Made by a program: the position numbers and the translations under genes. The notes beneath the pieces were generated by a model. It saw only the letters and a list, made by a program, of their open reading frames with translations. It made no database searches and was not told the DNA's origin. Shown here in pieces: positions 54,654 through 62,559 of a stretch of 64,000 nt of DNA; the stretch's first letter is position 1, and each line of letters begins with the position of its first letter. This DNA comes from an uncultured Pelagibacteraceae bacterium (lineage in GTDB: Bacteria; Pseudomonadota; Alphaproteobacteria; Pelagibacterales; Pelagibacteraceae). The stretch spans positions 5,596 through 69,595 of the forward strand of contig CACHIV010000005.1 of NCBI GenBank assembly GCA_902579985.1. Direction: 5' to 3'.

Positions 54654-54730
54654 TGGTGGACCGCCCAGAACTCGAATCTGGAATCTCCCGGTTCGTAGCC
54701 GAGCGCCTTATCCAGTTTGGCCAGCGGTCC
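54654..54730 (-). tRNA. tRNA-Arg (ACG)
   Basis: GGACCGC/GCGGTCC acceptor stem, CTCGG-CTACGAA-CCGGG anticodon arm, CCAGA-TTCGAGT-TCTGG T arm, A20, encoded ACCA; 77 nt. Confidence 0.95.
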
Positions 54731-55990: not shown

Positions 55991-56103
55991 AAAGGATTTC
56001 TTCTAAATTTTTTTATGAGTATAGCTCTTTGAATCCAAAGTTTAGCATCTAAACTTTGTTGATTTTTTAAATTGATTATTCTTTTTAATATAAATTTAAA
56101 CAT
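55987..56103 (-). CDS. Candidate 38-aa basic small protein
   Basis: MFKFILKRIINLKNQQSLDAKLWIQRAILIKKFRRNPF; 4-nt TTAA convergent overlap with the thiolase stop. Confidence 0.5.
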   Translation of the reverse strand: MFKFILKRIINLKNQQSLDAKLWIQRAILIKKFRRNPF

Positions 56104-56203: not shown

Positions 56204-59200
56204 ATGACTACAAAATTAGTTGTCCCAGATATTGGAGAATTTGAAAATGTTGAAGTTATTGAACTTTTAGTAAAAACTGGAGATCAAATTAAGATAAATG
56301 ATCCAGTTGTTACAATTGAAAGTGACAAATCAAGTGTCGAAATTCCTTCAACAATTTCTGGAAAAATTGAATTAATAAACGTTAAGCTTGGCGATAAAGT
56401 TTCTAAAGGAGATTTATTATTAACTATTGAGTCATCAAAAGAAACTACCACAGAAAAAGAAATTCCTAAGGATACTGATAATATTATAAAACAAGCTGAA
56501 GCAGTTTTAAAAGTTGAAGAAAAGAAAAAGATCTTTCATAAAGAAAAATTACCTAAAAAAGAAACATCAAAAATTCAATTAATAAATAGCAATGATATTG
56601 ATCCACTTGAAACTCAGGAGTGGTTAGAATCTTTATCTGCTGTTGTTGAAAATGATGGTAAGGAAAGAGCTCATTTTTTAATAAAAGAATTAATTAATAA
56701 AGCTTATCGAGAGGGAGCGAATATTCCTTATACTCAAACTACACCTTATATAAATACAATTCCACCTGAAGCAGAGGTTAAATCAAATGGAGATCAGAAT
56801 ATAGAAAGAAGAATCAGATCTTTAATTAGATGGAACGCAGCTGCCATGGTTGTCAGAGCAAATAAAAAATTTCCAGAATTAGGAGGTCACATAGGTACTT
56901 TTGCATCAGCAGCAACACTTTATGATGTAGGAATGAATCATTTTTGGAGAGCAAAAAATAATCAATTTGGAGGTGATTTAATTTATTTTCAAGGTCATAG
57001 TGCACCAGGAATGTATGCTAGAGCATTTCTTGAAGGTAGACTAAGTGAGAAACAATTAGATAGTTTTAGACAGGAAGTAAATCCTGGTGGTTTATCTTCC
57101 TATCCACATCCTTGGCTAATGCCAAATTTTTGGCAGTTCCCAACAGTATCAATGGGACTTGGACCAATGTTAGCAATCTATCAAGCTAGATATATGAAAT
57201 ATCTTATTAATAGAGGATTAATAAAAGATGAAGGAAGAAAAGTTTGGGCATTTTTAGGAGATGGTGAAATGGATGAACCAGAGTCTTTAGGCGCAATTGG
57301 ATTAGCATCAAGAGAAAAATTAGATAATTTAATTTTTATAATTAATTGTAATTTACAAAGATTGGATGGACCGGTTAGAGGAAATGGAAAAATTATTCAG
57401 GAATTAGAAGGTATTTTTAGAGGAGCTGGATGGAATGTAATTAAAGTTATATGGGGATCTTATTGGGATTCGTTGCTTGCAAATGATAAGACGGGTCATT
57501 TGGTAAAAACAATGAATGAAACGGTTGATGGGGAGTATCAAGCAATGAAAGCAAGAGATGGTGCATATGTGAGAGAAAAGTTTTTTGGAAAGTACCTAGA
57601 AACAAAGGAATTAGTTTCAAATTTATCTGATAAAGATATATGGAGATTAAATAGAGGTGGACATGATCCTCATAAAGTTTTTGCTGCTTATGACAAAGCT
57701 TCAAAAAACATTGGCAGTCCAACAGTAGTGATTGCAAAAACTATAAAAGGTTATGGGATGGGTAAAAGTGGAGAAAGCGTAAATACAACTCATCAAACTA
57801 AAAAATTAGATATAGACGATCTAATGTATTATAGAGATAGATTTGATGTTCCATTAACAGATAACCAAGTAAAAAATATTGAGTATTATAAACCTGATCA
57901 AAAATCAAAAGAAATAAAATATATCAAAGAAAGAAGATTAAAACTTGGTGGTTTTATCCCTGAGAGAACCACATATTCAAAACCTATAAAAGTACCTTCA
58001 AAAGATATTTTTGATAATATGAAAGTGTCAACGGGAAAGAAAGAAATGTCTACAACTATGGCTTTAGTAAGAATGTTGACCAATCTTCTTAGAGATAAAA
58101 ATTTTTCATCGAGGTTAGTACCGATTATTCCAGATGAGGCTAGAACATTCGGTATGGAAGGTTTTTTTCAAAAAGTAGGAATATATGCTCATGAAGGTCA
58201 AAAATATGAACCAGAAGATGCAGCTCAATTAAGTTCTTACAGAGAAGAAAAAAGCGGACAAGTTTTAGAGGAAGGAATTACAGAGGCAGGAGCAATGTCT
58301 TCTTGGATAGCTGCTGGAACTTCGTACACTAATCACGATATAGAAATGATACCTATTTATTTATTTTACTCAATGTTTGGCTTTCAAAGAATAGGTGATT
58401 TGGCTTGGGCAGGTGCTGATAGTCAATCTAGAGGTTTTTTGATTGGAGCTACCGCAGGAAGAACGACTTTAGCTGGAGAGGGACTACAACATCAAGATGG
58501 ACATAGTCACTTAATAGCATCAACTATTCCGAATTGTATTTCATATGACCCAACATTTCATTATGAATTAGCTGTAATTTTTAGGGAAGGCTTGAGAAGA
58601 ATGCACGAAAAAAAAGAAAACATTTTTTATTACATAACTACTATGAATGAAAACTATACACATCCTGATATACCAAAAGAAAAAAATTGTGAGGAAGGAA
58701 TTTTAAAAGGAATGTATAAAATTAAGGAATTTAGCAAAAATAAAAAAACAAAAATTCAGTTTCTTGGATCTGGCACGATATTAAGAGAGATGATTGCTGG
58801 CGCTGAGATATTACAAAATGAGTACCAAATTGATAGTGAAGTATGGAGTGTAACAAGCTTTAATGAACTTAGAAGAGATGGTTTAGAGACAGAGAGATAT
58901 AACCTTCTTAATCCTGATAAAAAAGCAAAAATATCATATGTTGAGAAGTGCTTAGGTAAATCAGAAGGACCTATATTGGCCGCGTCAGATTATATGAGAA
59001 TGAATTCCGATCAAATAAGACCCTATGTAAATAATAAAAGTTTTTATTCATTGGGTACTGATGGTTTTGGTAGAAGTGATACTCGAAAAAATCTTAGAAA
59101 ATTTTTTGAAGTAGATAAAGAACATATTGTTACTTATGGATTAAGTATTCTTGCTAAAGAGCAATTAATAACATCAAAATATGCATCTGAAGCAATTAAA

Positions 59201-59245
59201 AAATATAAAATAGATACGGAAAAACCTATACCTACAAAACTATAA
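56204..59245 (+). CDS. aceE: Pyruvate dehydrogenase E1, homodimeric type, with an N-terminal lipoyl domain
   Basis: Lipoyl domain (ESDKSSVEIPS) at aa 1-76; NDIDPLETQEWL, GGHIGTFAS, GDGEMDE, NCNLQRLDG and GEGLQHQDG motifs; 1013 aa. Confidence 0.97.
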   Translation: MTTKLVVPDIGEFENVEVIELLVKTGDQIKINDPVVTIESDKSSVEIPSTISGKIELINVKLGDKVSKGDLLLTIESSKETTTEKEIPKDTDNIIKQAEAVLKVEEKKKIFHKEKLPKKETSKIQLINSNDIDPLETQEWLESLSAVVENDGKERAHFLIKELINKAYREGANIPYTQTTPYINTIPPEAEVKSNGDQNIERRIRSLIRWNAAAMVVRANKKFPELGGHIGTFASAATLYDVGMNHFWRAKNNQFGGDLIYFQGHSAPGMYARAFLEGRLSEKQLDSFRQEVNPGGLSSYPHPWLMPNFWQFPTVSMGLGPMLAIYQARYMKYLINRGLIKDEGRKVWAFLGDGEMDEPESLGAIGLASREKLDNLIFIINCNLQRLDGPVRGNGKIIQELEGIFRGAGWNVIKVIWGSYWDSLLANDKTGHLVKTMNETVDGEYQAMKARDGAYVREKFFGKYLETKELVSNLSDKDIWRLNRGGHDPHKVFAAYDKASKNIGSPTVVIAKTIKGYGMGKSGESVNTTHQTKKLDIDDLMYYRDRFDVPLTDNQVKNIEYYKPDQKSKEIKYIKERRLKLGGFIPERTTYSKPIKVPSKDIFDNMKVSTGKKEMSTTMALVRMLTNLLRDKNFSSRLVPIIPDEARTFGMEGFFQKVGIYAHEGQKYEPEDAAQLSSYREEKSGQVLEEGITEAGAMSSWIAAGTSYTNHDIEMIPIYLFYSMFGFQRIGDLAWAGADSQSRGFLIGATAGRTTLAGEGLQHQDGHSHLIASTIPNCISYDPTFHYELAVIFREGLRRMHEKKENIFYYITTMNENYTHPDIPKEKNCEEGILKGMYKIKEFSKNKKTKIQFLGSGTILREMIAGAEILQNEYQIDSEVWSVTSFNELRRDGLETERYNLLNPDKKAKISYVEKCLGKSEGPILAASDYMRMNSDQIRPYVNNKSFYSLGTDGFGRSDTRKNLRKFFEVDKEHIVTYGLSILAKEQLITSKYASEAIKKYKIDTEKPIPTKL

Positions 59246-59246
59246 A

Positions 59247-60518
59247 ATGACAAAAGAGGATATTAAAGTTCCAAATATTGGTGAGTTTAAACATGTCGAG
59301 GTAATAGAAGTATTAATTAAAAAAGATCAATTAGTTAAAAAAAATGATCCATTAATTACAATTGAAAGTGATAAATCAAGCGTTGAAATTCCATCTACTC
59401 ATGATGGTAAAGTTTTATCTCTTAATGTTAAATTAGGTGATAAAGTTTCTGAAGGTGACAAAATATTAGATTTAGAAATAATTGATACAATTAAAACTGA
59501 AAGAGGAATTTCAAAGTTTAAAGATGAAAGAGAACAAAAAATTAAAGCAAAAACTCAATCACTAGAAAATAATTATAAAAGATCAAATCTAATTGTCAAA
59601 GATTTTACATCTAAAACACTTGCATCTCCAAAAGCAAGAAAATTTGCGAGGGAGCTTGGAGTAGATGTAAATAAAGTTTTAGGCAGCGAGAGAGAAGGAA
59701 GAGTTACAGAAAAAGATATAAAATTATTTGTTTCAAATAAATCTATTCAAAACATAAATACTAAAATTGCAAAAAAAGATCCTATTCAATTAAATTATTC
59801 TCATTCAGAATTTGGAGAAATAGAAACTAAAGATATTCCAAGAATTAAGAAACTTTCTTCAAAATATCTTATGAATTCTTGGACAAATATTCCACATGTT
59901 ACAAATCATGATGAAGCTGACATTACTGAGATGGAAGAATTTAGAAATTCCCTTACAGATATTTACACTGGAGAAAAGAAGAAAATATCTCCATTAGCTT
60001 TTATTGTGAAAGCATTAACTGCATCTTTAAAGAAATTTCCAAATTTTAATTCTTCAATTGATGAAATTGAAAGTGGCAAAATGACAATTAAAAAATATTA
60101 TCATATTGGTATTGCAGTAGATACATCTCATGGTTTAATGGTTCCAAAACTTCGGAATGCAGAAAATAAGAATATTTCTTTAATAAGTGAGGAATTAAAA
60201 AAATTAAGTGAACAATGTAGAAATCTTAAAATTGATAAAAAAGAATTATTTGGAGGATCGATGACTATAACTAGCTTAGGAGGAATTGGAGGTTCATTTT
60301 TTACTCCTATAATAAATTATCCTGAGGTTGCAATTTTAGGTATTGGTAAATCAGAAAAAAAACAAGTTTTTATAGATGGTAAATTTAAAACAAGAACCAT
60401 ACTACCTCTTTCTTTATCTTATGATCATAGAATTATTGATGGTGCAGAGGCAGCAAGATTTAACAATGATTTAAAAGAAAATCTTGGTAGTAATTTTGCA
60501 TATAAATTAGCAATATAA
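59247..60518 (+). CDS. aceF: Pyruvate dehydrogenase E2 (one lipoyl domain)
   Basis: ESDK lipoyl motif, ASPKARKFARE subunit-binding domain, SLSYDHRIIDGA motif. Confidence 0.96.
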   Translation: MTKEDIKVPNIGEFKHVEVIEVLIKKDQLVKKNDPLITIESDKSSVEIPSTHDGKVLSLNVKLGDKVSEGDKILDLEIIDTIKTERGISKFKDEREQKIKAKTQSLENNYKRSNLIVKDFTSKTLASPKARKFARELGVDVNKVLGSEREGRVTEKDIKLFVSNKSIQNINTKIAKKDPIQLNYSHSEFGEIETKDIPRIKKLSSKYLMNSWTNIPHVTNHDEADITEMEEFRNSLTDIYTGEKKKISPLAFIVKALTASLKKFPNFNSSIDEIESGKMTIKKYYHIGIAVDTSHGLMVPKLRNAENKNISLISEELKKLSEQCRNLKIDKKELFGGSMTITSLGGIGGSFFTPIINYPEVAILGIGKSEKKQVFIDGKFKTRTILPLSLSYDHRIIDGAEAARFNNDLKENLGSNFAYKLAI

Positions 60519-60548: not shown

Positions 60549-61646
60549 ATGATAAAAAGCATTAAAATTTTACCGACTAGCCTTCAGGTGAGGTTTAAAA
60601 ATGAAATAGATGATAATTTTCCTAATATATGGTTAAGAGACCACGCAAAAGATAAAGAAAATTGGGATTATAGAAGTAATCAAAGAAAAACATATACAGC
60701 ATCATTAAGTTTTAAATTATTTATAAAAGAAGCTTCTGTAATTGATGATGGTAAATATATTGAAATTTTATGGTCAGATTCAAAAAAGGCTATTAAATAT
60801 TCTGCTAAATTTCTATTAAATAATTTGTTAAAAAAAAGTGTCAAAAATAGAAAAATTATATTGTGGAAAAAAAAAGGGATAAGTAAAAAAATATTTTTTA
60901 AATATAACAATATATTATCTAAATATGGTTTTAAGGAATTTTTAAAAAATTTATATAAATTTGGTTTTTGTGTAATAACTGATTGTAAAACTGAAATTGA
61001 AACAGTTAAAAATATTGCAAATAAAATTGGATATGTAAGACAGTCTATTTTTGGTGGATTATGGGAATTTGAGTCTAACGAGGATATGGCTGACAGTGCT
61101 TATACTCAAGAAGAGTTAAGACCGCATACAGATTCAACATATAGTAATGATGCTCCAGGTCTTCAATTGTTATTATGTTGTGATTATAAAGCTAGTGGTG
61201 GAGAGTCTATAATGGTTGATGGTTTTAAAATAGCAAATATGATCAAGGATCAGGATAAAAAAATATTTGATATTCTATCAAACATTGAAGTTCCAGGAAA
61301 ATATGTTGGGGACGGAGTTATATTAGAAGCTAAAAGACCTATTTTTAAATTAAATTCTAATAAAGAATTAGTTCAAGTAAGTTTTAACAATTATGATCGC
61401 GCAGAATTTAGATTAGAAAATGAAACAATGATTAATTTTTATAAGGCTATTAAGAAATTTGATAACTTAGTTAATAAATCGGAATTTCAATGGAGGCATA
61501 TTTTAAAACCAGGTGAGTTATTAATTTTCAATAATTGGAGAGTTTTACATGGAAGAGGTTCATTTAAGGGTAAAAGAAAAATGGCAGGTTGTTATATTAA
61601 TATGGAAGATTTTGTGAGTATCTGTAAAATTAATGATCTAAATTAA
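60549..61646 (+). CDS. Gamma-butyrobetaine/trimethyllysine dioxygenase-like Fe(II)/2-oxoglutarate dioxygenase (TauD family)
   Basis: IWLRDH N-terminal domain; PHTD (HxD), GGESIMVDGF and NNWRVLHGR motifs. Confidence 0.85.
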   Translation: MIKSIKILPTSLQVRFKNEIDDNFPNIWLRDHAKDKENWDYRSNQRKTYTASLSFKLFIKEASVIDDGKYIEILWSDSKKAIKYSAKFLLNNLLKKSVKNRKIILWKKKGISKKIFFKYNNILSKYGFKEFLKNLYKFGFCVITDCKTEIETVKNIANKIGYVRQSIFGGLWEFESNEDMADSAYTQEELRPHTDSTYSNDAPGLQLLLCCDYKASGGESIMVDGFKIANMIKDQDKKIFDILSNIEVPGKYVGDGVILEAKRPIFKLNSNKELVQVSFNNYDRAEFRLENETMINFYKAIKKFDNLVNKSEFQWRHILKPGELLIFNNWRVLHGRGSFKGKRKMAGCYINMEDFVSICKINDLN

Positions 61647-61671
61647 ATTATCTTAAATTTTAAAATCAATT

Positions 61672-62559
61672 ATGACTAAATCTTTTTCTATAGTTTGTGC
61701 TTTAATTACTACCTTTATTTGGGGAACTGCATTTATTGCTCAAGATACAGGCATGGATAATATAGGACCTTTAACATTTAATGCTGCACGATTTTTTGTT
61801 GGATTTATTACAGTATTACCTATTGCATTAATTTTTGAGAGAAAAAAAATTTATCAACAAATTAATTTAAATAAGAATAAATTTTTTAAATATCTTGTGA
61901 TTATGGGATTTTCTTTATTTTTAGGAACAGCTCTTCAACAAGCCTCACTTCAATTTACTAATGTTGCTAATGCGGCTTTTTTTACAGTATTTTATGTACC
62001 ATTAGTACCTATTCTATTGTTTTTTATTTATTCTCAAAAAGTTCACTGGAGTATTTGGCCATCTATAGTTTTATGTATATATGGAGTATATCTTTTAAGT
62101 AATTTTTCAGACTCAAATATCATGAAGGGTGATGCACTTGTAATTCTCTGTTCTTTGTTTTGGGCTCTTCATATAATTTTCGCTGGTAAATTTATGGAAA
62201 TATTCGATATACCGATATTTTATGCAGCGCTGCAGGGATTATTAGTTGCTTTATTATCAATTACTTTTGCCTACACTTTTGAAGATATTGTATTTTCAAA
62301 TATTTTACTAGAAAGTACTTCTATAATTTATGCTGGAGTTTTGTCAGGGGGAGTTGCATTTACACTTCAGATGTTTGCTCAAAAAAATATAGAAGAAGCA
62401 CCAGCAGCAATTATTTATTCCCTTGAAGGTGTTTTTGCAGTAATTGCAGCATGGATAATTTTAGATCAAATTCTAAATATAAACAATGTTATAGGATGTA
62501 TTTTAATATTAGTAGCAGTTATTTTTTCACAGTTAGCTCCTGGCTTAAAGAAAAATTAA
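61672..62559 (+). CDS. DMT (EamA) family transporter
   Basis: TFIWGTAFIAQ, GPLTFNAARF, GDALV and IYSLEGVFA motifs; about 10 TM segments. Confidence 0.9.
   Translation: MTKSFSIVCALITTFIWGTAFIAQDTGMDNIGPLTFNAARFFVGFITVLPIALIFERKKIYQQINLNKNKFFKYLVIMGFSLFLGTALQQASLQFTNVANAAFFTVFYVPLVPILLFFIYSQKVHWSIWPSIVLCIYGVYLLSNFSDSNIMKGDALVILCSLFWALHIIFAGKFMEIFDIPIFYAALQGLLVALLSITFAYTFEDIVFSNILLESTSIIYAGVLSGGVAFTLQMFAQKNIEEAPAAIIYSLEGVFAVIAAWIILDQILNINNVIGCILILVAVIFSQLAPGLKKN

What the first reader, a model, noticed from the sequence alone, without database searches (positions are those of the whole stretch)
56204..56600. Pyruvate dehydrogenase E1 (AceE) fused to its own N-terminal lipoyl domain
Seen in sequence: AceE begins with a full lipoyl domain (VVPDIGEFENVEVIELLV...IESDKSSVEIPS) and a charged ~50-aa linker before the usual NDIDPLETQEWL start. 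The domain closely resembles the single lipoyl domain of the adjacent AceF (VPNIGEFKHVEVIEV...IESDKSSVEIPS), also at DNA level, suggesting local duplication or shuffling. Established: lipoyl domains normally sit on E2; extra ones are known on E1-beta (Zymomonas and other alphaproteobacteria) and on E3 (Neisseria, Ralstonia). Homodimeric AceE itself is atypical for alphaproteobacteria, which mostly use PdhA/PdhB. Inference: a tethered swinging arm on E1 could raise flux through PDH, notable because pyruvate is a key carbon substrate for cultured SAR11. No E3 gene is in this cluster.
Basis: partly seen in the sequence, partly recalled or inferred. Interest (0 to 1): 0.55.

Follow-up and report, generated by a model that had tools for sequence, protein, structure and literature searches.

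The report
Lipoyl swinging arm on SAR11 AceE
In this SAR11 (Pelagibacter) genome the first enzyme of the pyruvate dehydrogenase complex carries its own lipoyl "swinging arm", which textbooks place only on the second enzyme; the whole bacterial family keeps this arm, while about a quarter of its members have lost the arm on the second enzyme.

Summary
ORF 56204-59245 encodes a 1013-aa homodimeric-type E1 (AceE) made of three parts:
- a true lipoyl domain (aa 4-75, lysine K42 in ESDKSS)
- a disordered linker of about 52 aa
- a complete E. coli-like E1p

It is not an artefact. In family-wide samples, every primary AceE gene not cut by a contig end has the extension, apart from one low-quality genome and one unpublished genome I did not inspect. 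Independent metagenome contigs bridge the junction.

The E1 lipoyl domain is under strong purifying selection (dN/dS 0.01-0.18). It forms one clade with the SAR11 E2 domains, so it arose by duplication within the lineage. In this genome the duplication is old (dS 1.25).

The strongest functional evidence is comparative. About 29 of 124 family AceF genes lack a lipoyl domain, and no clean case of loss from E1 was seen. Some genera carry two domains on E1. I conclude that the E1 arm is a working arm, and probably the primary one.

I found no lipoyl domain on E1 in any of the roughly 240 non-SAR11 AceE genes I examined. No paper in the library describes the architecture. It is a new variant of a known theme (lipoyl domains on E1-beta or on E3).

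Earlier agents of this scan found the same design on other SAR11 DNA. They also reported it in marine group II archaea, which I did not test.

The parts
56036..56058 (+). Terminator-like hairpin after the upstream thiolase gene. It suggests that aceE-aceF start their own transcription unit in the 213-nt AT-rich spacer.
   Evidence: Consensus scan only. No Rfam element lies upstream.
56204..59245 (+). aceE: a 1013-aa homodimeric-type pyruvate dehydrogenase E1 with an N-terminal lipoyl domain.
56213..56428 (+). E1-borne lipoyl domain (aa 4-75), predicted to be a beta-sandwich.
   Evidence: Pfam PF00364 63.5 bits. AF2 pLDDT 74-90 with six strands. Nearest solved relatives are E. coli AceF, N. meningitidis 1gjx and N. 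gonorrhoeae LD-E3 5u25.
56327..56329 (+). AAA codon of K42, the predicted lipoylation site in ESDK42SS.
   Evidence: Read from the sequence. ESDKSS is present in 120 of 120 nearest cluster representatives and in every family locus I read.
56432..56587 (+). Flexible linker (aa 77-128), charged, variable and rich in insertions and deletions.
   Evidence: 10-39% identity with many gaps across genera. AF2 pLDDT below 50 for 79-91 and 98-127.
56462..56500 (+). Conserved short motif inside the linker (IPKDTDNIIKQAE, aa 87-99); weakly predicted helix, role unknown.
   Evidence: The motif [IVL]P.[DENAST]T[ED].[IL][IL]..AE is present in 120 of 120 close homologues and in genera g3, g4 and g508. AF2 predicts a helix at 90-102 with pLDDT about 50.
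56588..56758 (+). N-terminal region of the E1 core (NDIDPLETQEWL...). It is equivalent to the first ~60 residues of E. coli E1p; residues 1-55 there bind the PSBD of E2.
   Evidence: Aligned to E. coli residues 6 onward. 58-75% conserved without gaps. The role in E. coli is taken from PMC6270654.
56759..59242 (+). Catalytic E1 core (ThDP fold, PDH_E1_M, C-terminal domain), including GDGEMDEPE...NCNLQRLDG and H530, which aligns to an E. coli histidine I count as H407.
59247..60518 (+). aceF: a 423-aa E2 that starts one base after the aceE stop codon.
59259..59471 (+). The single lipoyl domain of E2 (aa 5-75; K43 codon at 59373-59375), paralogue of the E1 domain.
59619..59720 (+). Peripheral-subunit-binding domain of E2 (aa 125-158).
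   Evidence: Pfam E3_binding 44.9 bits.
59820..60485 (+). Acetyltransferase catalytic (core-forming) domain of E2 (aa 192-413).
   Evidence: Pfam 2-oxoacid_dh 255 bits.

Best explanation
The N-terminal domain of this AceE is a functional lipoyl 'swinging arm' carried by E1 itself. Shown here: the domain, its lysine and its surface loop are conserved, and the genome encodes LipB and LipA. Inferred: LipB and LipA lipoylate K42. The lipoyl-lysine is then reductively acetylated in an E1 active site (its own dimer or a neighbour), carries the acetyl group to the catalytic core of AceF for transfer to CoA, and is re-oxidised by the cell's single E3. The arm hangs on a disordered tether of about 52 residues. 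The tether is followed directly by the E1 segment that, in E. coli, docks on the PSBD of E2. In the assembled complex the arm would therefore start from almost the same point as a canonical E2 arm (lipoyl domain, linker, PSBD). I infer that this is why moving the arm is tolerated. In this genome E1 and E2 each carry one arm. Across the family the E1 arm is the constant one and the E2 arm is optional. The arm arose once, by duplication of the lineage's own AceF-type lipoyl domain, before the Pelagibacteraceae radiated.
For: Domain identity:
- Pfam, PDB and AF2 agree on a lipoyl domain.
- K42 in ESDKSS is invariant in 120 of 120 close homologues and in all family loci read.

Selection:
- dN/dS of the E1 domain is 0.013-0.18, similar to the E1 core.
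- It is 58-82% identical with no gaps across genera, against 10-39% for the linker.
- Internal control: a truly degenerate lipoyl-like domain on the E2 of genera g3 and g4 has lost the lysine and the PDIGDF loop, and sits on branches of 3.7-4.7 changes per site leading to and within that group. E1 domains have end branches of 0-0.4.

Machinery: lipB and lipA are present.

Comparative evidence:
- LD-AceE is followed by an AceF that begins at the PSBD, with no lipoyl domain, in nine loci from at least six genera.
- In G071 (99% complete) and G156 (95% complete) the only Biotin_lipoyl hits in the whole genome are SucB, BCCP and AceE.
- About 29 of 124 AceF genes in an even family sample have open frames of 304-336 aa.
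- The primary AceE keeps a frame of 998 aa or more wherever it is not cut by a contig end. The one exception in the even family sample is a 53%-complete genome whose AceF frame is also broken. In the order-level sample one unpublished genome (G111, 961-aa frame) is a further exception that I did not inspect.
- 13 of 122 E1 genes carry two lipoyl domains.

Origin:
- All 40 lipoylatable SAR11 domains form one clade (SH-aLRT 97).
- The fused AceE proteins form one clade (100).

The E2-docking N-terminal region is intact (PMC6270654).
Against: Nothing biochemical is known. Lipoylation of K42, reductive acetylation in cis and delivery to the E2 core are all inferred. In genomes with a lipoyl-less AceF, the SucB domain could in principle serve both complexes, as the shared E2 does in the Corynebacterium hybrid complex (PMC7568260). 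This would weaken the 'only arm' argument, but it would not explain the universal retention of the E1 domain. The lipoyl-domain tree rests on 76 columns and a quick search, and AT-biased composition could help to group the SAR11 domains. RNA-library contigs cover the lipoyl-domain and core parts, but none bridges the variable linker, so I show no direct evidence for a transcript or protein.
Confidence: 0.78

Rival explanations
1. The E1 domain is lipoylated or folded but is not a catalytic carrier. Instead it acts in assembly or regulation, for example as a docking handle for E3 or E2, or as a pseudo-substrate that gates the E1 active site. The acetyl traffic runs through the E2 arm, or through the SucB arm where E2 has none.
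For: Lipoyl domains have non-catalytic docking roles elsewhere; for example, the kinases of the mammalian complex bind them (PMC6270654). As far as I know (own knowledge, not checked here), the function of the extra domains on E3 or E1-beta in other bacteria is still unsettled. A conserved linker motif of unknown role hints at an additional interaction.
Against: The lysine and the E1-recognition loop are strictly conserved, as in catalytic arms. The family shows what a non-lipoylatable domain looks like: the E2 pseudo-domain, which has diverged strongly. About a quarter of the family has no other PDH-type arm.
Confidence: 0.12
2. The E1 arm mainly serves another enzyme. It might accept acyl groups from the unfused AceE paralogue found in some SAR11 genomes, or feed a different acyl-transfer route, rather than the AceE-AceF complex.
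For: Some family genomes carry a second AceE of 883-884 aa with no lipoyl domain and no E2 gene, next to a TRAP transporter. That enzyme must borrow an arm from somewhere.
Against: The window's genome has no such paralogue: it gives one PDH_E1_M match. The paralogue is sporadic, while the E1 arm is universal. The arm is fused to the enzyme encoded with aceF.
Confidence: 0.04
3. The domain is a neutral leftover of a duplication, or an artefact of assembly or gene calling.
For: None beyond the general rarity of the architecture.
Against: The frame is continuous in closed genomes and in 19 genera. Independent metagenome contigs bridge the junction. dN/dS is far below 1. The next methionine is far downstream (near aa 214), so there is no ATG start near the core.
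Confidence: 0.02

Closest known systems
Canonical Gram-negative PDH complex (E. coli or Azotobacter AceE homodimer, AceF with 1-3 lipoyl domains, Lpd)
   Same: The E1 core aligns end to end with E. coli E1p (1128 bits), including the N-terminal E2-docking segment. E2 has the lipoyl domain, PSBD and catalytic domain layout. The lipoyl domains are of the AceF type. The genes are adjacent in the order aceE-aceF.
   Different: A lipoyl domain and linker sit on E1. E2 has only one arm here and none in about a quarter of the family. No lpd gene is in the operon; the single E3 gene lies next to the 2-oxoglutarate dehydrogenase genes sucAB and is presumably shared with that complex.
Lipoyl domain on E1-beta (PdhB) of heterotetrameric PDH in Alphaproteobacteria (Zymomonas type)
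   Same: A peripheral E1 subunit carries an N-terminal lipoyl domain. I saw this in alphaproteobacterium G248 as Biotin_lipoyl + Transket_pyr + Transketolase_C, 460 aa.
   Different: The carrier is a different, non-orthologous E1 (the beta chain of an alpha2beta2 enzyme). The domain type also differs: PdhB, PdhC and SucB domains score 20-45 bits on the SAR11 domain model, against 55-103 bits for the AceF and E3 type. The SAR11 arm therefore did not come from an ancestral PdhB.
Lipoyl domain on E3 (Neisseria P64K; aceE-aceF-LD-lpdA clusters of Beta- and Gammaproteobacteria and some Alphaproteobacteria)
   Same: An extra AceF-type lipoyl domain sits on a peripheral subunit of an AceE/AceF complex. 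These domains are among the closest relatives of the SAR11 domain (1gjx 64 bits, 5u25 62 bits; 83-100 bits).
   Different: The carrier is E3, not E1, and E2 in those clusters keeps 1-3 arms. The SAR11 E3 has no lipoyl domain.
Actinobacterial OdhA (E2o catalytic domain fused to E1o; PMC10415282, PMC7568260)
   Same: An E1 polypeptide has acquired a module that normally belongs to E2, and the complex works with a non-textbook distribution of parts.
   Different: OdhA gained the catalytic domain and borrows lipoyl domains from AceF. SAR11 AceE gained the lipoyl domain and uses the catalytic domain of AceF.

Membership tests
AceE, homodimeric-type pyruvate dehydrogenase E1 (TIGR00759) | Full-length match above the curated equivalog cut-off | tested here: met
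   1420.4 bits against a cut-off of 859.9, aa 129-1011. The 'AKGDH_not_PDH' exception model stays below its cut-off (1280.6 < 1408.3).
AceE, homodimeric-type pyruvate dehydrogenase E1 (TIGR00759) | PDH_E1_M middle domain, ThDP-binding GDG...NCN motif, and end-to-end alignment to a solved E1p | tested here: met
   PF17831 350.8 bits. GDGEMDEPE...NCNLQRLDG is in the sequence. E. coli 1L8A residues 6-883 align.
AceE, homodimeric-type pyruvate dehydrogenase E1 (TIGR00759) | Pyruvate decarboxylation and reductive acetylation activity | not testable with these tools
   Needs an enzyme assay.
Lipoyl domain (Pfam PF00364, lipoyl-attachment type) | Profile match above the gathering score | tested here: met
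   63.5 bits against 22.1, aa 4-75.
Lipoyl domain (Pfam PF00364, lipoyl-attachment type) | Target lysine in the DK(A/S) hairpin motif | tested here: met
   ESDK42SS, identical to the motif of the cell's own AceF. Invariant in 120 of 120 homologues.
Lipoyl domain (Pfam PF00364, lipoyl-attachment type) | Flattened beta-barrel fold | tested here: met
   AF2 model: six strands, pLDDT 74-90. This is a prediction only.
Lipoyl domain (Pfam PF00364, lipoyl-attachment type) | Covalent lipoate on the lysine in vivo | not testable with these tools
   The lipB and lipA genes are present. The modification itself needs mass spectrometry or a blot.
E1-beta with lipoyl domain (alphaproteobacterial PdhB type) | The carrier is the beta chain of a heterotetrameric E1 (Transket_pyr + Transketolase_C) | tested here: not met
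   The carrier is homodimeric AceE. The genome has no PdhA-like gene; the only strong E1_dh match is SucA.
E3 with lipoyl domain (P64K / PdhL type) | Lipoyl domain fused to dihydrolipoamide dehydrogenase | tested here: not met
   The single E3 has a 466-aa frame without a Biotin_lipoyl match.
Textbook AceE/AceF/Lpd complex architecture | All lipoyl domains reside on E2 | tested here: not met
   One domain is on E1 here. In relatives E2 has none.
OdhA-type E2-E1 fusion | 2-oxoacid_dh catalytic domain fused to E1 | tested here: not met
   No PF00198 match in P0001.

The most novel reading that the evidence does not exclude
In SAR11 the E1-borne arm is the primary lipoyl arm of pyruvate dehydrogenase, and in about a quarter of the family the only one. 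These very abundant marine and freshwater bacteria would then run a PDH complex whose E2 core can be armless and whose substrate carrier travels with E1. That would be a third, independently evolved and more radical way of placing arms on peripheral subunits. The window's genome would represent the two-arm intermediate state.
Probability: 0.55. Interest if true: 0.72.

Novelty: new variant of a known kind. Interest (0 to 1): 0.6.

Why it matters
The 2-oxoacid dehydrogenase complexes are the textbook case of substrate channelling by swinging arms anchored on the E2 core. Here the arm sits on a homodimeric E1. The pattern in relatives (the E1 arm always kept, the E2 arm often lost, sometimes two arms on E1) gives a natural experiment on where an arm must be anchored and how many are needed. 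The organism matters too. SAR11 bacteria dominate ocean surface bacterioplankton, and pyruvate is regarded as an essential central carbon compound for them (PMC6775983). Cultured strains carry the fusion, for example Ca. Fonsibacter ubiquis (WP_099340697.1), so the prediction can be tested directly. Public annotation calls the protein plain 'pyruvate dehydrogenase, homodimeric type', so the feature is easy to overlook.

Tried and rejected
- Recent gene conversion or shuffling in this genome: rejected. E1 versus E2 domain DNA identity is 69.5% and dS is 1.25. The long identical runs fall on conserved residues in an AT-biased genome. In genus g2 the second E1 domain is closer to the same genome's E2 domain (78-80% DNA identity in G001 and G021, 72% in G017), so exchange may occur elsewhere.
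- Origin from an alphaproteobacterial PdhB lipoyl domain: rejected by domain-model scores and by the tree.
- Search for lipoyl-AceE outside SAR11:
  - Six long hits picked from the 150 nearest 50%-identity representatives have no lipoyl domain, and my own domain model run over all 150 found an N-terminal domain only in two SAR11-like fragments.
  - In a 401-genome sample of Pseudomonadota, 165 genomes have AceE (G000 included). I inspected the 12 with an open frame of 973 aa or more, plus G263 (990 aa) from the class sample, and found none. The other listed frames are too short, and 45 rows were not shown.
  - None of the 71 named non-SAR11 loci with an AceE frame has one.
  - The survey is not exhaustive and barely reaches other phyla or archaea.
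- ESM Atlas returned only SAR11-like fragment clusters named 'Lipoyl-binding domain-containing protein'.
- Transcript evidence: metatranscriptome contigs cover the lipoyl-domain and core parts, but none bridges the linker, and contigs cannot prove transcription.
- No Rfam element lies upstream of aceE. The promoter scan is no better than shuffled sequence.
- The careful IQ-TREE run of the lipoyl-domain tree did not finish, so I used the quick tree. The AceE trees are FastTree only and do not identify a donor: the fused clade lies outside a clade of 69 gamma, beta and other AceE sequences.
- A proteome paper on Ca. P. ubique does not mention PDH or lipoate.
Full report
**What is in the window**

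The ORF at 56204-59245 (+) encodes 1013 residues.
- Pfam finds a Biotin_lipoyl domain at aa 4-75 (63.5 bits), followed by the three domains of a homodimeric E1.
- NCBIfam's aceE equivalog model scores 1420 bits on aa 129-1011.
- E. coli E1p residues 6-883 align to aa 130-1010.

Residues 1-129 are therefore a pure N-terminal addition: a lipoyl domain (K42 in ESDKSS) and a charged linker of about 52 residues.

AlphaFold2, run with a 43-sequence alignment, gives:
- a confident beta-sandwich for the lipoyl domain (pLDDT 74-90);
- a disordered linker (pLDDT below 50), apart from a weak helix at 90-102;
- a confident E1 core.

One base after the aceE stop codon, aceF (59247-60518) encodes a 423-aa E2 with one lipoyl domain, a PSBD and the catalytic domain. 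The two lipoyl domains are 59% identical. No E3 gene follows. The genome has a single E3 without a lipoyl domain, next to sucA-sucB on another contig. It also has lipB and lipA and no PdhA-type E1.

**Not an artefact, and not a private feature of this genome**

- All 120 best 90%-cluster homologues carry PF00364 plus the E1 domains. All 120 have ESDKSS.
- In an order-level sample, 137 of 140 Pelagibacteraceae genomes have this AceE with open frames of about 1000-1135 aa. The sister family has no AceE (0 of 60) and only a SucB-type E2.
- In a sample drawn evenly over 19 genera, every primary AceE not cut by a contig end has a frame of 998 aa or more. The one exception is a 53%-complete genome whose AceF frame is also broken.
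- Closed genomes, including Ca. Fonsibacter ubiquis (WP_099340697.1, 1022 aa), show the same layout.
- Independent metagenome contigs bridge lipoyl domain, linker and core.

Two unpublished genomes (G111, G1004) are counted only in these tallies. G111's AceE frame of 961 aa is a further apparent exception that I did not inspect.

**Is the arm alive?**

- Between orthologues the E1 lipoyl domain has dN/dS of 0.013-0.18, like the catalytic core.
- It is 58-82% identical without a single gap across genera, while the linker is 10-39% identical and full of insertions and deletions.
- The family provides its own negative control. The E2 of genera g3 (Fonsibacter) and g4 carries a second lipoyl-like domain that has lost the lysine (IEDEENAYEIPSP, IEDDESSIDIPSP) and the PDIGDF loop. 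It sits on branches of 3.7-4.7 changes per site leading to and within that group, whereas E1 domains have end branches of 0-0.4.

**The decisive comparative result**

I followed a lead from earlier notes of this scan and tested it here.
- In nine loci from at least six genera, the aceF gene next to LD-aceE begins directly at the PSBD (for example MSQIIHASPKVRKFARQLG...) and has no lipoyl domain.
- In G071 (99% complete) and G156 (95% complete) the only Biotin_lipoyl matches in the whole genome are SucB, the biotin carrier protein and AceE.
- In the even family sample, about 29 of 124 AceF genes have open frames of 304-336 aa, which is too short for a lipoyl domain. They are spread over many genera and are polymorphic within g5 and g6; g1 is also polymorphic once G071 from the order-level sample is counted.
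- Conversely, 13 of 122 E1 genes have two lipoyl domains. One genome, G994, combines a two-arm-size E1 frame (1121 aa) with an AceF frame (329 aa) too short for a lipoyl domain, judged from frame lengths only.

So the E1 arm is the constant part and the E2 arm is dispensable. This is what one expects if the E1 arm carries the acetyl group.

**Origin**

- A domain model built from SAR11 lipoyl domains scores AceF and E3-borne domains of other Proteobacteria at 55-103 bits, but PdhB, PdhC and SucB domains at only 20-45 bits.
- In a quick maximum-likelihood tree, all 40 lipoylatable SAR11 domains (E1 first, E1 second, E2) form one clade (SH-aLRT 97), apart from all outside domains. The E1 arm therefore came from the lineage's own AceF-type domain, not from an alphaproteobacterial PdhB.
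- In the window the duplication is old (dS 1.25).
- In genus g2 the second E1 domain groups with the same genus's E2 domain (DNA identity 78-80% in G001 and G021, 72% in G017), so later exchange happens.
- The fused AceE core is monophyletic (support 100). It lies outside a well-supported clade of 69 gamma-, beta- and other AceE sequences. The AceE genes of other Alphaproteobacteria (Methylobacterium, Pseudolabrys) nest inside that clade (FastTree only).

AceE is rare in Alphaproteobacteria: 6 of about 397 other genomes sampled. A foreign or very old origin is plausible, but I cannot name a donor.

A simple route to the fusion would be a tandem duplication running from the aceE start to the end of the aceF lipoyl domain and linker, followed by loss of the upstream aceE copy. 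This is my inference and is not shown.

**Mechanism (inferred)**

In E. coli the disordered first 55 residues of E1p bind the PSBD of E2 (PMC6270654). Here that segment is intact and immediately follows the linker. Once E1 is docked, the arm therefore emerges next to the PSBD, close to where a canonical E2 arm is anchored. From there it can visit the E1 funnel, the E2 core and a neighbouring E3. H530 aligns to an E. coli histidine that I count as H407 and that, from memory, is needed for reductive acetylation; it is invariant in the alignment.

Each E1 brings its own acceptor, so the number of arms scales with E1 occupancy.

**How new is it?**

Lipoyl domains on peripheral subunits are known. 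I verified an LD-PdhB and an LD-E3 in one alphaproteobacterium and many aceE-aceF-LD-lpdA clusters. P64K of Neisseria has solved structures (PMC6270654).

I did not find a lipoyl domain on a homodimeric AceE in any of the following:
- the 12 longest AceE frames among the 165 AceE-bearing genomes of a 401-genome Pseudomonadota sample, plus one long-frame AceE from the class sample; the other listed frames are too short to hold one;
- 71 named non-SAR11 loci with an AceE frame;
- the nearest 50%-identity representatives.

Seven full-text searches returned no paper that describes it. One SAR11 paper notes aceEF and extra aceE copies without mentioning the domain (PMC10030771). Databases already hold the architecture under automatic names.

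Earlier agents of this scan reached the same reading on other SAR11 genomes. They also reported an independent fusion in marine group II archaea, which I could not test.

**Verdict**

This is a real, conserved and selected feature, and very probably a working swinging arm on E1. It is a new variant of a known kind and is worth a biochemical test.

Noticed in passing
L011:4341-5879 (+) (Ca. Fonsibacter ubiquis E2, aa ~110-185); L012:4333-5868; L014:4307-5848: The E2 of genera g3 and g4 (511-514 aa) has a second lipoyl-like domain that matches Biotin_lipoyl. It has lost the lysine (IEDEENAYEIPSP or IEDDESSIDIPSP) and is highly diverged. It is a retained, non-lipoylatable pseudo-arm of unknown role.
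   Followed up: partly
L024:2525-5173 (-) with dctP, dctQ and dctM at L024:1-2465 (-); also L025:1663-4314 (+): Some SAR11 genomes have a second, unfused AceE-like E1 (883-884 aa, about 52% identical). It scores just under the 'AKGDH_not_PDH' exception model, has no E2 gene beside it, and sits directly upstream of a TRAP transporter operon. It may be an orphan 2-oxoacid E1 that has to borrow a lipoyl arm.
   Followed up: partly
window 56462-56500 (aa 87-99 of AceE): A short motif, (I/V/L)P.(D/E/N)TE.(I/L)I..AE, is conserved inside the otherwise free-evolving linker. It is present in 120 of 120 close homologues and in genera g3, g4 (after the first lipoyl domain) and g508. It is absent in g2, g5 and g6. 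It is weakly predicted as a helix and no partner is known.
   Followed up: partly
Genomes G002, G006, G008 (sister family f2 of the order): The sister family has no AceE (0 of 60 genomes). In the three genomes checked (G002, G006, G008) the confident lipoyl/biotinyl matches are only a SucB-type E2, the biotin carrier protein and a biotin carboxylase, so they seem to lack a pyruvate dehydrogenase complex altogether.
   Followed up: partly
window 60549-62559; L019, L022, L084: An EamA-family transporter gene follows aceF directly in several genera. In the window a TauD/gamma-butyrobetaine-hydroxylase-like dioxygenase gene (60549-61646) lies between aceF and the EamA gene (61672-62559).
   Followed up: no
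L070 (G263), L123 (Pseudolabrys sp.), L138: Some aceE-aceF-lpdA clusters encode an E3 with two N-terminal lipoyl domains (open frames 717-922 aa), so the number of arms on E3 also varies.
   Followed up: no
window 54657-54730 (-): A tRNA gene (Rfam 55 bits) lies between the thioesterase gene and the thiolase gene, upstream of the aceEF unit.
   Followed up: no
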